From the NCBI GenBank assembly GCA_037379345.1, contig CM074518.1:24428001-24492000 (forward strand): a stretch of DNA of 64,000 nucleotides. Direction: 5' to 3'. A program made the position numbers. Origin of the DNA: Perna viridis (Eukaryota). This document shows positions 1 to 15,000 of this stretch, piece by piece (position 1 is the stretch's first letter; every line of letters starts with the position of its first letter).

Positions 1-3000
1 GTAGATATTTATGTTGCTTTAGTTAAAATATATGTTAAAATTAACTTTTAGAAGTTTAAATTAATAACCATGGGTCGTTTTATTTATGCATTCAGGTGGA
101 AAGCGATCTTACCCGACACTACATCTAATCTACTACGTAAAAGCTCATAAAAATAATAATGAAATACATAGCAGTTAAGTCGCTTTATTCAATATATTCA
201 ATTAACCAGTTTTTACTAAGGTTTCACTACTAATCTCTTTATAAATTTAATATTCATACACATGCGATGAACAAGATGGTACATACATCTTATATACAAC
301 AGTTTAATCTCCAAGTAGTAGTATTAGAATGGAAAATAGCAATAAGAGAACGCACCGTGTTTGGGTGTTGTTTTTCTTTTAGAAAAAAAAAACATGCACA
401 GAGTTCTACACTGTCACGCTTTAATGACGGATAATAAATCCTTGAATGTTTAGGGAGTACAGAATGTTAGTGTGACATATACGGTTCATTATGTAGAAAT
501 GGTTCGGGGATTTCATATCTTGTTGCCAATTGCCCGAAAAAGCAAAATATATCAGTATCACTGCTTTAATAGTTAGTTCGTTGCAAGTTTGGGTTTTTTA
601 TATATCTTGTTGGCTATGGTCGAACGTGGCACATTAAAATGCCTTGCTGCCTGGTAAGTATTCATCTTTCCTTCTCGAACACAATCGACAGCCCTCTGAA
701 GGTTTTCTTGGCTATACGAATACTTTTGGTAATATCGCCCTGTATTGGTTGGTTTGGTAAAGAACTGCAAGGCTTTGTTTCCTACAAGATATAACAGTGT
801 CTGCTCAGTGTTCAGAAACATTTCTTCAATAAAAAGGATGCAACATAAAAATTAAAAATAAGTCCAGAACATGTGAGCAGTACAACAACAAAATAATCCC
901 GCATTACACAATCCGGAAATACATTATGAGATACACTAGCTGGGTCAAGTTAAGTTATGGAAACAAATATTCAAATAAAAATGTGTTTACTGAGCAGCAA
1001 CAAAATCACAATACATTTGTCAAAAGACCGTAGATGTAATAAGTACTTCACGCAGTTCCAGTTCTCTGATCTGCATGATTGCAGAAAATATTGAGTTCGT
1101 TTGAAAAACACTTTGAAAGAGCTTTTTTCTTGTTGCCAGATTTCAAATATATATTCGCAAGAAAGAAAGGAGATCATATCCTTATGCTATGTTCCTTAAA
1201 TGTATAATTGGTTAAGACACGGTTAACTTAAAACATGTTGAAATTTTTATTGACAAAAAAAATGTTTCCAGGTATTACACCTATTTCATACAAAAATTAT
1301 TGCATATACAATGATTCAGAAACCAGATTACAACCAATGAAAATCAGAACTGAGAGTGTCCCAATTTAGGGACATATCCACTAGCAACATAAAACACAGT
1401 TAAAAATACATTACATCTCCCTTTGCTAAAATTCGGCTTCTTGTGCATCAACTTTCTCACAGAAATGCTGCAAAACCTTGACATATTGTTTCATCAAAAG
1501 CCATTAACCGATTAAGGGATAACTTCACAATGAATATGAATGAGTGAACTATGGGGTTCTTATATAAACCTCAACTTAGTTTGGCATGTGTACACTGGTG
1601 ATATATTCTAACATGAAACAAACATTATAAGCGTATTTTGTTTCGCAGATGACGTGGATACAGGCAATGGGTTTTCCAGTCGGATCAACGTTGACTCTGA
1701 TTCATCAGCAAATATTAATTGTTTATATTAATATGCACTAAATATTACAATAGGGTATGTAAGTCTCGTCATGTGACCCCGTGATTTCACGAAATTCAAT
1801 GGGTTTTAATCTACTATTCAAAAGCATAGAGATTTGTCATTTAGAGAGCGATGAGTTCAGTGTTATTGGCAAAAATCTTCCTGTGTAAAAAAAATACCGA
1901 TAAAATGACAAATAACTATTTCCACATGATAAATGTAGTAAGAAAAAAAAACAAACTTAAAGATTTTGCATTGTTATACGTTTCCAGTACCCGGAAGTAA
2001 ACAATAAAATCCAGGTCGGTCTTCGGTTTTCAATATGTTTTACATCGGAAATTCCGGTAAAGAAAATGAAACTAAAACGAGACTTACATACCCTACAGTC
2101 AAATATATTTCAAGTATATTCAATGTTGACATCAGCAAAATACACTTGAGACGTCGGAAATATAATCAACTTGCATTAAAGGTAACAGACGTTGACATTG
2201 ACGTAGTCGAGTGGGCTGCATCGCTTTAATGTTCATTGTAGAAATTATCTACTTTTAACATTTAGTCAAATGCACTAAAAACTTAAAGGTTCATTTTAGT
2301 AAAATTATCTTTAATCGGCAAATGCTGATATTAGTCAAATGACTAAAATTCTGTTCATACTTGACGGCGAACGTGCAAGTCAAATGAACAAATGAACAGC
2401 TCGGTTCAATACTGATATGCTTGTAAGATAAATCAATGCAATGTCGACAATCCACTTTAAGTATAATCATGTGCGTTACTACGATGAAATTGCACGTCAC
2501 TTCCGTTTAATGTAGACGCACATGTAAGCCATGAACACTATACTGTACGTATGCGTACATTAATATTACATTTTTTAATGTATAAGGAATGATTCAGCGT
2601 AAGTGTTGAAGATGCATGTTCTTTCTAACATATATTTTGTTGGAAATGGTCCCTCTAGGAACGTTGAAATATCTAGCAGCTTGATAAGTATTCATAACAC
2701 CAGCCCTTACTGCTTGGACTGCTCTTTGTAGGTTTTCCGGGTCATAGTGGTGTCTCTTTCGGTCTTTCTTTAGCACTGGCTTAGTTTGCAACTGTCCTGA
2801 AAAGTAGTTAAAACTTTTGATATCCAATGTCTTCGTATTACTTTTAGTGTTTATTTTACATAATACATGTAACACGACATTTGAAAGCACCAGTATATAG
2901 AAGTAGCAAGTGTTCAGGTGATAAAAAATGTCTCGGTATAATATCACCATTCGGAACAAACAATGCCGCACTTTTTATCCATTGAAATGGGAAAGTTAAC

Positions 3001-12000: not shown

Positions 12001-15000
12001 TAACCGACTTTCTACAACCTTTTCACGGACTTTCGATAGAAACAGGGGATTATAAACTGGACGCTAGTTGTTTAGAACTTACTTGTCGAGGCCAGGTTTA
12101 TTTAGTGGAGGTCGTATAACTGCTTCCTTAAATGCCTTCGGAATATACCATTCATGTAATGACTTGATCACTATTTTCTAGAGGTTATTATTGGTGCTAG
12201 GCTGTTTAAACACCGATTAAGTAACGAAGCTGGCAGCGGGTCGAGTTCACTAGATTTCGAACAAGCCTTTGAAATAATCTTCCGAATTTCATCAACAGAC
12301 GTAGGTGTTAAGACATAAAGTACATGACCGTCAAATATAATGTCCGCACAAAAGGCATCACTTCCGTTCGGAGAGGAATCATTTGCACTTGCAGTTGATA
12401 GATTTTTCCTGGTTTCAATCTTATTGAAGTAGAAGTCACCGAACGTATTCGACAGCAGATCTTTGTCACACTCATGAGATGGTAAAACTACGGTCTTCGG
12501 GTTATCCATTCATTTGTTTGTTAAATGGAACACTTTCTTTTGATCACATCTGACTTCCAACATTTTATTTAAAAAATAGTCAAGTCTTGTTTTTCAAAAG
12601 TAGCTTTTGTGTTTCTATCAATTGTTCCTTGTACAGATGTTTATGAACCTCGGACTTCGTCTTCCGCATTATACACTCTGCTTTACGGCGATCTGTTGTA
12701 GTGCTACGAGGCTGGGTTGAGTGCCATTCTGTATTCGTTATCGTTTATATTGAAGTGGAGCATGCTTCTCGATGATTGAACTAAGCACCGAGTTTTACGT
12801 TTAAACTACTTCGTCAAACGAAGCTGTATGGTTCGGCGTGATATTCGAACAACTGATGCCGGTTTCAAAATCGTGTTATGAATTATCACATATTCTTGTT
12901 TTTTGCTTTGGTCTTCGTGACCCAGTCATAAATGGTTGAACGTGGTATTCCAAATTTTTCTGCCGCTTTATATGAACTCAGTTTGCCCTGAATGACCATA
13001 TGGACCGCTTCCATGAGTGTTGCAGAATCGTAATACTGCTTCCTTCTATTAAACCTTGGAAGCAAATCTGAAACATGAATAACATAAGTTTTGTACTTCC
13101 GTCGAACAGAGCACCGATAAGTTCACATGTCAAACACAGCATTGATATTTACAGGTATCAAATACAGCATGATATTTGCACGCAAAGTCCATCAGTTTTA
13201 ATTGCAATAGTCAATCGGCTGATAAAATAAAATTCTAAAATTCTCGCAGTCCATTTGTGAAAACGATAGATGATTAAATCAAACACTGCTGCAGCAACAG
13301 CACGTATTTAAAACCATAACTATACATAAAAAATCGTAAAAGACCTAATATAACTCGTTTGTTCATCAAGAAAAATCATAGGGTTCAAACAGAGGTACAT
13401 TATAATAATTGGTCATTTCTATAATGACTACCAAAACAATACAATATTCTCTATCAAAGAGTTGCAAAATGCACCCCACGAAGGTTTCAATTCTATAAGT
13501 GAATATTATATTTCCAGTACATATAACAAGTAACACCTATTTGAGGACTTTTTTTTCTAGCTTTCACTGATAACTTTACATGTACTGTGGTATAGCAACC
13601 AATTTGTCACGATTTCTCAGCAAGATATTAAGACATAATGGAGAATGAACTTTTTGAATGCTGTCAACAATTGCAGCCTTGCAGGGATTAAGCATCCCAA
13701 CAGAGTTAACAGTTACATGTACTAGTTTACTACATGAAACGATACAATACCATTACACAAGCTGATCTGCCCGCAAAAAAAAACATTAGATGAATTTCCC
13801 TGAACATAAAACATTGAAACGATACACATACATTTTAGTACCAAACCTTTTACAATACCACTTTAAAATCAGTCTTCATGACGATTCTTTATAAAGAAGT
13901 AAAATAGGCTGCTAAAGTCCGGTTTCGTAGGTTTTACTCAGTGAAAAGGCAATAGTCATATAGATGACAGACCATATTTTGTCTTTATTCATTACTTTCT
14001 TATCTTGTATACATGCCTTTAGCTCACTTGTGGATCGTATATATATTCCACAGCACAGAAGAAGAGGAGTGGATGAGATGAGGATTTTCTCTTGTAGTCT
14101 AATCGGGCAAGCAATAATTTTAGTCCGAAAATTCACTTTTCTGGGCATCAAACTGGAGGCAAACGTCCTTGACTACCACTTGTATGTGGTTTAGTCATTA
14201 TTGCAAGGGTATCAGATTGATGGTAAACGTCTCAGATTTCTACTTGTGCATAAGAATATTTGCTAGAGAAGTTGTGTCATGTACATTTTGCCCACTACTA
14301 CATGTATAAATGTATGTAATTGCCTCTGTCATGACATTGTTCTATGAATTGTGATAGGCAAGAAGTTATAACTAACTTTAAATACTGCCATCTAATCTGG
14401 CATTTATTGAAGTCATTTCTAACACAAGACTACACAAATTTTCAATACAAGCTTAACAGACATAAGATAAAATAAGGCAGTAATCTTCCAATCAACTTCA
14501 ATAGGATTATTTCATTTTCAAATTAATTCTATCCAAGTCAAGTCAACCCACCCAAACTCTTCAAATGTAATCAAACTATTTCAGTTTTCAAATCAATCAT
14601 TTTCTTTTCATTTTCGGTATTTTATGGAATATTTCTATATGCCGTTTCCGTGGAGCTTTCAAGTTACTTCTACTAGTCATAATTGCTTAACCACCAGACA
14701 ACAGTTATCTTAAGGTACCAGAAATAAAGGCACTATTTAACATAATAATAAAGAATACTTCATGCTCTACCGTGGATTAATACAATACTGGTGTCAGTGA
14801 TATTCACAATAAAAAACAATATTCTGGGATTCTAATACTTGGTACTGTCCAGCAATGAGTTATTATAAGTAGTAGACAACAGTCATTAGACATGAATTGT
14901 GTAAATTTCATGATTTCTGTATTTTCATACCATGTAAGTTAATGTGGCTAAATTCTGATTACATGTATATAGTGTCATTTCTTCTAGGCTTTCCTGTTAT

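What the first reader, a model, noticed from the sequence alone, without database searches (positions are those of the whole stretch)
573..13067. Recognition helix is hypervariable across the exon array while the scaffold is conserved
Seen: residues after the conserved (F/Y)x(V/I)P turn differ: IPRSTIYDWV, VPKTTLLFHV, VPRRTISYRV, VPQQTIFSRL, VPRPTLRYRL, VPRMTVYRKA, VPRGTISNKI, VPRSTIANKI. The Y...(L/M)..A(V/I)..V/Y core and basic N-terminal arm persist. Inference: purifying selection on the fold with diversification of base-contacting positions, giving a DNA-specificity repertoire rather than decaying copies.
Basis: partly seen in the sequence, partly recalled or inferred. Interest (0 to 1): 0.7.

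Follow-up and report, generated by a model that had tools for sequence, protein, structure and literature searches.

The report
BTB gene with alternative HTH exons
This stretch is the tail of a transcription-factor gene that can end in any of eight alternative exons, each encoding a small DNA-binding helix-turn-helix domain, but the DNA-reading helix is no more variable than the rest of the domain.

Summary
The eight quoted peptides are all present on the minus strand. All nine ORFs match Pfam HTH_psq above threshold.

Upstream lie three constant exons that encode a BTB domain. Their last donor leaves one codon base, and every intact HTH exon has an acceptor that needs two. TTTCAG occurs exactly once in 6 of 8 intact ORFs, always in that phase. 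Each exon ends in its own stop, and 7 of 8 have no compatible donor after the domain.

This is therefore a lola/mod(mdg4)-style array of alternative 3' exons, but with psq-type HTH domains and a BTB that is not Tramtrack-type.

Purifying selection on the fold is supported. Synonymous sites are saturated, invariant Ala, Pro and Thr use all four codons, and the frames stay open.

"Hypervariable recognition helix" is not supported. Mean entropy is 1.64, 1.65 and 1.69 bits for helices 1, 2 and 3, with Mann-Whitney p = 0.47. Helix 3 has three free positions but five conserved polar or basic ones.

A DNA-specificity repertoire is plausible but untested.

The parts
23098..23223 (-). Constant exon A, coding part. 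It runs from the ATG to the donor AAG|GTAATA and encodes 42 aa, the N-terminal quarter of the BTB domain. A T-rich acceptor at 23233 suggests a 5' UTR exon further upstream.
   Evidence: donor in phase 0, acceptor at 23233; translation. Pfam alone finds nothing in these 42 aa.
21201..22447 (-). Constant exon B. It holds the rest of the BTB domain and a long low-complexity linker rich in Ser, Pro and Gln. The acceptor is TTTTAG|GCG in phase 0. The donor AAG|GTAATA leaves 2 codon bases.
   Evidence: Pfam BTB 5.9e-10, profile positions 25-107 of 110. The nearest solved sequences are ZBTB17/BCL6 and KEAP1 BTB domains.
19808..20121 (-). Constant exon C, an acidic linker. The acceptor TTTCAG needs 1 base. 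The donor CAG|GTAGGG leaves 1 codon base, and this is the common donor for the array. If the donor is skipped, the frame runs 16 more codons to a stop.
   Evidence: No Pfam family.
12886..13067 (-). Alternative terminal exon E1, with a basic arm and a psq HTH (...GIPRSTIYDWV...) and its own stop.
   Evidence: Pfam HTH_psq 1.3e-10. TTTCAG acceptor in the 2-base phase. No ATG upstream in the frame.
10986..11170 (-). Alternative terminal exon E2 (...GVPKTTLLFHV...). A second acceptor in the same phase lies at 11221.
   Evidence: Pfam 4.8e-10..
9435..9889 (-). Alternative terminal exon E3 (...GVPRRTISYRV...), with a tail of about 90 residues after the HTH that includes an acidic stretch.
   Evidence: Pfam 2e-08. 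TTTCAG acceptor in the 2-base phase. Tail length.
7911..8107 (-). Alternative terminal exon E4 (...GVPQQTIFSRL...).
   Evidence: Pfam 1e-12. Acceptor. AlphaFold2 model with pLDDT 88.4 and helices at 19-31, 36-43 and 47-63. Best fold match is the LCoR HTH, 2cob, rmsd 1.1 A over 41 columns.
6572..6810 (-). Alternative terminal exon E5 (...GVPRPTLRYRL...).
   Evidence: Pfam 2.5e-09. TTTCAG acceptor in the 2-base phase. Atlas nearest clusters are HTH_psq.
3773..3881 (-). Decayed ninth copy, E6. Its TTTCAG acceptor is in the wrong phase (1 base). A stop falls inside helix 3 (...DVSSRTVN*). The conserved Tyr, Pro and Arg have been replaced by Gln, Ser and Ser.
   Evidence: Pfam 1.8e-04, 21.6 bits, profile positions 5-32 only..
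3390..3595 (-). Alternative terminal exon E7 (...NVPRMTVYRKA...).
   Evidence: Pfam 4.6e-06. TTGCAG acceptor in the 2-base phase. No ATG upstream. AlphaFold2 pLDDT 81.0 with the same three helices.
2594..2796 (-). Alternative terminal exon E8 (...NVPRGTISNKI...). It is the closest paralogue of E9.
   Evidence: Pfam 1.4e-10. TTTCAG acceptor in the 2-base phase. 67% amino-acid identity to E9 over 45 codons.
573..739 (-). Alternative terminal exon E9 (...NVPRSTIANKI...). The acceptor is uncertain: 739, 781 and 823 are all in the 2-base phase. The array may continue beyond the start of the window.
   Evidence: Pfam 2.7e-10..

Best explanation
Region 573..13122 is the 3' part of a single minus-strand gene. 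Its three constant exons (23223..19808) encode an N-terminal BTB dimerisation domain and a disordered linker.

The last constant donor, at 19808, can splice to any one of eight intact terminal exons. Each of these encodes a basic arm plus one psq-type three-helix HTH and then stops. The gene would therefore yield a family of BTB-HTH isoforms that share everything except the DNA-binding module. A ninth copy has decayed.

The duplications are old, and the fold is kept by purifying selection. Sequence variation sits on surface positions of all three helices alike, so the recognition helix is not specially variable. Helix 3 carries five conserved non-core residues (R47, T49, R/K53, K55, K56) and three unconstrained positions (48, 51, 52).

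Shown here: the domains, the exon phases, the terminal-exon anatomy, the variability profile and the codon evidence for selection.

Inferred: that the exons really are used alternatively; that the BTB domain dimerises the isoforms; that the conserved helix-3 residues and the basic arm give generic DNA affinity; and that positions 48, 51 and 52, together with the variable arm, tune which sequence each isoform prefers.
For: Domains:
- 9 of 9 ORFs match HTH_psq above threshold.
- BTB is found in exon B.

Splice anatomy:
- Phases chain correctly. Exon A ends in phase 0 and B starts in phase 0. B leaves 2 bases and C needs 1. C leaves 1 base and all 8 intact exons offer an acceptor needing 2.
- Objective count: TTTCAG occurs exactly once upstream of the domain in 6 of 8 intact ORFs, and all 6 are in the needed phase. 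Over all YYYYAG hexamers, 7 of 9 are in that phase.
- 7 of 8 exons have no phase-compatible donor between the HTH and the stop. E3 has one weak candidate. The stop comes 7 to 19 residues after the helix-3 core in 7 exons and 91 residues after it in E3.
- E1 and E7 have no ATG upstream in the frame, so they cannot be stand-alone genes.

Fold:
- AlphaFold2 gives pLDDT 88.4 for E4 and 81.0 for E7, with the same three helices.
- The nearest solved protein is the LCoR HTH, 2cob, by profile (E = 3.7e-12) and by fold.

Selection:
- dS is saturated or above 1.8 in all 28 pairs, while dN is 0.31 to 1.10.
- Invariant A25, P46 and T49 each use all 4 codons.
- The chance of a 54-78 codon open frame is 0.0145 to 0.002.

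Variability: as given under the observation check.
Against: - There are no transcript data, so the splice junctions and the alternative use of the exons rest on sequence alone. I scored splice sites with simple consensus rules of my own, not a trained model.
- The acceptors of E7 (TTGCAG) and E9 (ATACAG, TTGTAG or TTGAAG) are weaker than the others.
- Poly(A) hexamers follow every exon, but they are expected by chance in DNA of 33% G+C, so they add nothing.
- Entropies come from only 8 sequences and are capped at 3 bits.
- I assigned core and non-core positions from hydrophobic periodicity, not from computed solvent exposure, so that comparison is partly circular. The whole-helix comparison is not.
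- The structure models used only the 8 or 9 paralogues from this window as their alignment.
- No orthologues could be fetched, so selection acting on each exon's own helix-3 residues is unmeasured.
Confidence: 0.78

Rival explanations
1. One reading: base-contacting positions of the recognition helix have been selectively diversified, by positive or diversifying selection focused on helix 3, to build a repertoire of DNA specificities.
For: Positions 48, 51 and 52 of helix 3 are at or near the highest entropy seen, 2.5 to 2.75 bits out of a possible 3. They lie between the core residues I50 and L54, so they should face outward. The exons are clearly under purifying selection as a whole.
Against: - Equally high entropy is found at exposed columns of the arm, helix 1, the loop and helix 2: positions 16, 19, 23, 30, 31, 33, 36 and 42.
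- Helix 3 as a whole is no more variable than the rest (p = 0.47 and 0.57).
- The non-core positions of helix 3 are on average more conserved (1.56 bits) than those of helix 1 (2.27) and helix 2 (2.26).
- The youngest pair, E8/E9, shows no excess of helix-3 changes (Fisher p = 1.0).
- With dS saturated, paralogue comparison cannot show positive selection.
Confidence: 0.2
2. All isoforms bind much the same DNA through the conserved helix-3 residues and the basic arm. The alternative exons would then differ mainly in other properties, such as partner binding, tails like the acidic one of E3, stability, or regulation through the 3' UTR.
For: R47, T49, R/K53, K55 and K56 are conserved across the exons. 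The pattern T-[LIV]-x-x-[KR]-[VLI]-K also appears in human LCoR in the profile alignment. E3 carries a tail of about 90 residues that the other exons lack.
Against: Three outward-facing helix-3 positions and the arm sequence are unconstrained between exons. That would be unexpected if one shared motif had to be read in detail. Keeping eight HTH versions for more than the time needed to saturate dS implies that they are not redundant.
Confidence: 0.25
3. The copies are neutral, decaying tandem duplicates (pseudo-exons).
For: One copy, E6, is out of phase, truncated by a stop inside helix 3, and has lost the invariant Tyr and Pro.
Against: Eight of nine are intact despite saturated synonymous divergence. 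All eight score 26.7 to 48.0 bits against HTH_psq.
Confidence: 0.03
4. The HTH_psq ORFs are remnants of pogo/Tigger-type transposases, whose N-terminal domain belongs to the same family.
For: HTH_psq is related to transposase HTH domains, and weak secondary hits appear to CENP-B_N, HTH_Tnp_1 and HTH_Tnp_IS630. A paper treats animal HTH-Psq factors as transposon-derived (passages of PMC10027918).
Against: - All nine copies are on one strand behind a BTB gene.
- The acceptors are phase-matched.
- No DDE_1 or HTH_Tnp_Tc5 domain was found in the 9 exon ORFs or in the 10 other ORFs of the array region that I scanned.
- There is no nucleotide similarity between copies.
- Terminal inverted repeats were not searched for.
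Confidence: 0.03
5. The exons are spliced in series into one protein with many tandem psq repeats, as in Drosophila Pipsqueak.
For: All acceptors share one phase, which symmetric cassette exons would also show.
Against: Each exon reaches a stop soon after the domain. 7 of 8 have no donor in the required phase before that stop.
Confidence: 0.04

Closest known systems
Drosophila lola and mod(mdg4), and on a smaller scale fru, br and ttk: BTB genes with arrays of alternative 3' exons
   Same: [quoted passage not shown] An array of alternative terminal exons follows, each with its own stop and its own nucleic-acid or protein-binding module. Passages in PMC11426971 state that 17 of 20 lola isoforms carry different C-terminal C2H2 fingers. 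Passages in PMC13490949 describe 31 mod(mdg4) mRNAs with alternative 3' exons.
   Different: - The variable module here is a psq-type HTH, not C2H2 or FLYWCH.
- The BTB lacks the Tramtrack-group FxLRWN motif. Its nearest solved relatives are ZBTB and KLHL BTB domains.
- All exons lie on the same strand as the constant part, so ordinary cis-splicing would suffice. Trans-splicing is neither needed nor testable here.
Drosophila BTB-psq proteins (Pipsqueak, Bric-a-brac and relatives)
   Same: The same domain pair, an N-terminal BTB plus a psq HTH. The combination is named in a passage of PMC11426971.
   Different: As far as I recall (no call), those genes carry their psq domain or domains as fixed parts of the protein, and Pipsqueak has four tandem repeats. 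They do not have a menu of alternative exons. Their BTB is Tramtrack-type (passage), and this one is not.
LCoR HTH domain (PDB 2cob)
   Same: This is the closest solved structure by sequence profile (E = 3.7e-12, positions 9-54) and by fold (rmsd 1.1 A over 41 columns, 34% identity). It shares the basic arm ending in Tyr and the helix-3 pattern T-[LIV]-x-x-[KR]-[VLI]-K.
   Different: The 70-residue solved chain shows an HTH domain only, with no BTB. 2cob is a structure without DNA, so it does not tell which residues touch bases.
Lineage-specific 'HTH-Psq transcription factor' expansions reported in molluscs and Hydra (PMC10027918)
   Same: Many short, divergent HTH_psq coding units within one genome, with no one-to-one orthologues between species. 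The paper counts Aplysia 16, Biomphalaria 15, Octopus 12 and Hydra 43 (passages read).
   Different: That paper counts them as separate genes derived from transposons, and the word 'isoform' does not occur in its main text. Here the units are exons of one BTB gene.

Membership tests
HTH_psq (Pfam PF05225) | Profile match at or above the curated gathering score (20.4 bits) | tested here: met
   9 of 9 ORFs score 21.6 to 48.0 bits. The decayed E6 only just passes and covers profile positions 5-32 only.
HTH_psq (Pfam PF05225) | Three-helix, homeodomain-like HTH fold | tested here: met
   AlphaFold2 models of E4 (pLDDT 88.4) and E7 (81.0) both show three helices. The best PDB fold match is the LCoR HTH, 2cob, followed by homeodomains. 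These are predictions made from a shallow alignment.
HTH_psq (Pfam PF05225) | Sequence-specific DNA binding | not testable with these tools
   This needs a binding assay.
BTB/POZ (Pfam PF00651) | Profile match above the gathering score (20.5 bits) | tested here: met
   Exon B scores 39.7 bits, E = 5.9e-10, over profile positions 25-107 of 110. Exon A, which should supply the first quarter of the domain, gives no hit on its own. The exons were searched separately and never joined.
Tramtrack-group (TTK-type) BTB, the type found in lola, mod(mdg4), psq and bab | Conserved N-terminal FxLRWN motif, as defined in a passage of PMC11426971 | tested here: not met
   No F.[LIVM]RWN or [LIVM]RWN motif occurs in any frame of the gene. 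The only match in the window lies on the other strand at 50634, in a frame full of stops.
lola/mod(mdg4)-type alternative 3'-exon array | Constant BTB exons followed by several terminal exons, each phase-compatible with one common donor and each ending in its own stop | tested here: met
   The donor at 19808 leaves 1 base. All 8 intact exons offer an acceptor needing 2 bases, and TTTCAG is in that phase in 6 of 6 occurrences. Stops follow each domain, and 7 of 8 exons lack a compatible donor.
lola/mod(mdg4)-type alternative 3'-exon array | Transcripts that join the constant part to each alternative exon | not testable with these tools
   No transcript data were available.
lola/mod(mdg4)-type alternative 3'-exon array | [quoted passage not shown] | not testable with these tools
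   All exons are on the same strand and lie downstream of the donor. Cis-splicing is therefore possible, and trans-splicing cannot be judged from DNA.
pogo/Tigger-type transposase | HTH followed by HTH_Tnp_Tc5 and a DDE_1 catalytic domain | tested here: not met
   Neither domain appears in the 9 HTH ORFs or in the 10 other ORFs of 73 to 115 aa that I scanned in 1..14000. Shorter fragments were not scanned.

The most novel reading that the evidence does not exclude
A gene outside the arthropod Tramtrack group has independently arrived at the lola/mod(mdg4) design: one BTB dimerisation module joined by alternative splicing to a menu of at least eight psq-type HTH domains. Homo- and heterodimers of the isoforms would then read many different bipartite DNA sites. 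Some of the 'lineage-specific HTH-Psq gene expansions' counted in invertebrate genomes might in fact be exon arrays of this kind.
Probability: 0.35. Interest if true: 0.65.

Novelty: new variant of a known kind. Interest (0 to 1): 0.45.

Why it matters
If transcripts confirm it, this locus would be a second, independent solution to the same problem that lola and mod(mdg4) solve. One constant oligomerisation domain is combined with many DNA-binding ends, here built from a different DNA-binding fold and a different BTB subtype. That would make the design principle testable outside Drosophila.

It would also warn that counts of small HTH_psq "genes" in invertebrate genomes may partly be counts of exons.

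The specific claim of a hypervariable recognition helix should be dropped. The data show ordinary surface divergence over the whole domain, with three free positions in helix 3 as candidate specificity determinants.

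Tried and rejected
- Paralogue dN/dS. NG86 failed or gave dS above 1.8 in all 28 pairs, including the closest pair E8/E9, so no per-region dN/dS could be obtained.
- Nucleotide self-comparison of 1..20000 (blastn, word size 9). It found no similarity between exons or their flanks, only a minisatellite, so intron divergence could not serve as a neutral yardstick.
- Poly(A) hexamers downstream of each stop. They are present but are expected by chance at this base composition, so I did not use them.
- Rfam scan of 1..24000. No family was found.
- Literature. 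Six full-text searches (one search failed on syntax) found no paper describing a BTB gene with an array of alternative psq-HTH exons. Only open-access papers and preprints are covered.
- Atlas look-ups. They only restated the families, HTH_psq for E5 and ZBTB-like BTB for exon B.
- Left undone. The structure search against viral proteins and the complex prediction were not used, since no binding claim depends on them. The source organism was not determined.

Full report
**What is in the sequence**

Stop-to-stop reading of 1..16000 and a six-frame motif scan of the whole window show nine short ORFs, all on the minus strand between 573 and 13122. Each carries the pattern (F/Y)x(V/I)P..T(I/L/V).

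A ninth copy at 3773..4036 (...YYDVSSRTVN, then a stop) was not listed.

All nine match Pfam HTH_psq (PF05225) above its gathering score, with E-values from 1e-12 to 1.8e-4. No other copy was found elsewhere in the 64 kb window. The window has no N, is about 33% G+C, and nothing in it looked human.

**The gene they belong to**

Upstream on the same strand are three exons whose splice phases chain together.
- Exon A, 23223..23098, starts at an ATG and ends at AAG|GTAATA in phase 0.
- Exon B, 22447..21201, starts in phase 0 after TTTTAG and leaves two codon bases at AAG|GTAATA.
- Exon C, 20121..19808, needs one base after TTTCAG and leaves one base at CAG|GTAGGG.

Exon B matches Pfam BTB (5.9e-10, profile positions 25-107 of 110), and exon A would supply the first quarter of the domain.

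The BTB has no FxLRWN motif. A passage in PMC11426971 names that motif as the mark of the arthropod-only Tramtrack group. The nearest solved sequences are ZBTB17/BCL6 and KEAP1 BTB domains, and the atlas look-alikes are ZBTB-type clusters.

I searched the spliced model exon by exon. The joined protein was never assembled or searched.

**Why these are alternative terminal exons**

- The donor at 19808 leaves one codon base, and every intact HTH exon offers an acceptor that needs two.
- In an objective count, TTTCAG occurs exactly once upstream of the domain in 6 of the 8 intact ORFs, and all six are in that phase. Over all YYYYAG hexamers, 7 of 9 are in that phase.
- E7 (TTGCAG) and E9 (ATACAG, TTGTAG or TTGAAG) have weaker acceptors, but these are in the same phase.
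- Each exon runs into its own stop. This comes 7 to 19 residues after the helix-3 core in seven exons and 91 residues after it in E3.
- Seven of eight exons have no donor in the required phase after the domain. That argues against serial splicing into one multi-HTH protein.
- E1 and E7 have no ATG upstream in the frame, so they cannot be independent genes.
- No transposase domain was found in the nine ORFs or in the ten other ORFs of the array region that I scanned.

**The ninth copy**

E6 (3773..3881) has its TTTCAG acceptor in the wrong phase, a stop inside helix 3, and Gln, Ser and Ser in place of the conserved Tyr, Pro and Arg. It looks like a decayed exon, and it shows what decay looks like at this locus.

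**Fold**

AlphaFold2 was run with the window's paralogues as the only alignment. It gives three helices for E4 (pLDDT 88.4; helices 19-31, 36-43, 47-63) and for E7 (pLDDT 81.0).

The best PDB match, both by sequence profile (E = 3.7e-12) and by fold (rmsd 1.1 A over 41 columns), is the HTH domain of LCoR, 2cob. Homeodomain-DNA complexes follow at TM about 0.5. That fits a homeodomain-like bundle with an N-terminal basic arm.

**Is the fold under purifying selection?**

Yes, as far as paralogues can show.
- Exons do not align at the nucleotide level.
- dS is saturated or above 1.8 in all 28 pairs, while dN is 0.31 to 1.10.
- The invariant Ala25, Pro46 and Thr49 each use all four synonymous codons across the eight exons, Tyr17 uses both of its codons, and the Arg at position 47 uses both the CGN and AGA codon families.
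- With a stop probability of 0.075 per codon on this strand, an open frame of 54 to 78 codons has a chance of 0.0145 to 0.002. Only 34 of 905 minus-strand stop-to-stop frames in 1..14000 reach 54 codons.

**Is the recognition helix hypervariable?**

No.
- Over the eight intact exons, mean column entropy is 1.64 bits in helix 1, 1.65 in helix 2 and 1.69 in helix 3.
- Helix 3 (47-56) against all other columns is 1.57 versus 1.56 bits, one-sided Mann-Whitney p = 0.47. Against helices 1 and 2 together, p = 0.57.
- The most variable nine-residue window is 30-38 (2.03 bits).
- The twelve columns at 2.4 bits or more are 16, 19, 23, 30, 31, 33, 36, 42, 48, 51, 52 and 57, so they fall in every part of the domain.
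- When I set aside the hydrophobic core positions, the remaining helix-3 positions average 1.56 bits, against 2.27 for helix 1 and 2.26 for helix 2. The reason is that R47, T49, R/K53, K55 and K56 are conserved. The core assignment is my own, made from periodicity rather than from computed exposure.
- The youngest pair, E8/E9 (67% identical), differs at 3 of 10 helix-3 positions and at 10 of 33 positions elsewhere (Fisher p = 1.0).

**How it most likely works**

The gene makes BTB-linker-HTH isoforms that differ only in the terminal exon. This is inferred from anatomy.

The BTB domain probably pairs isoforms. This is inferred from what BTB domains of transcription factors do, as described in passages of PMC11426971.

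The conserved helix-3 residues and the basic arm probably give general DNA affinity. Positions 48, 51 and 52 and the arm sequence are the candidates for isoform-specific reading. All of this is inference. 2cob has no DNA, and I had no DNA-bound psq structure to map contacts onto.

The rival view, that all isoforms read a similar site and differ in other ways, cannot be excluded.

**Comparison with what is known**

The design matches lola and mod(mdg4), according to passages in PMC11426971 and PMC13490949. It differs in three ways: the variable module is a psq HTH, the BTB is not Tramtrack-type, and all exons are on one strand.

The domain pair BTB plus psq is known from Drosophila (passage). 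As I recall it, without a call, those genes have no alternative-exon menu.

PMC10027918 reports lineage-specific expansions of HTH-Psq "genes" in molluscs and Hydra, and its main text never mentions isoforms (passages).

Five working full-text searches turned up no description of a BTB gene with alternative psq-HTH exons. Subscription journals and genome annotations are not covered by those searches.

**Verdict**

The exon array and the conserved scaffold are real and well supported by sequence. "Not decaying copies" holds for eight of the nine. "Hypervariable recognition helix" is not supported. "DNA-specificity repertoire" remains a reasonable but untested hypothesis.

The locus is a new variant of a known kind of gene architecture and is moderately interesting. 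It cannot be placed taxonomically with the tools that were open.

Noticed in passing
window 8506-8854: A minisatellite of 38-bp units, 9.1 copies, 76% matches. It lies in the intron between exons E4 and E3.
   Followed up: partly
window 36590-38653 (+): An uninterrupted 687-aa open frame (stop to stop) matching the SLC26-type sulfate permease family: Sulfate_transp 2e-93 plus STAS 3.7e-16. It appears to be an intronless transporter gene about 13 kb upstream of the BTB gene, on the other strand.
   Followed up: partly
window 55290-56198 (-), 58512-59417 (-), 60947-61576 (-): Three long open frames of 302, 301 and 209 aa with no Pfam family at E <= 0.01, apart from one weak chance-level row for the third. 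What they are is unknown.
   Followed up: partly
window 32593-33222 (+), 12171-12509 (-), 5788-6105 (+): Open frames that look to me, from recall only, like fragments of retroelement proteins. Two of them lie inside introns of the array. Pfam found nothing in them.
   Followed up: partly
window 19758-19808 (-): If the common donor at 19808 is not used, the frame of exon C continues for 16 codons to a stop. A BTB-only isoform without any HTH is therefore possible.
   Followed up: no
window 9435-9700 (-): Exon E3 alone continues for about 90 residues after the HTH. This tail includes an acidic stretch (...LLIDDESENLHREESENGNEAG...) and could be an isoform-specific effector region.
   Followed up: no
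window 21201-22100 (-): The constant linker in exon B is long and rich in Ser, Pro and Gln. No domain was detected in it beyond the BTB.
   Followed up: no
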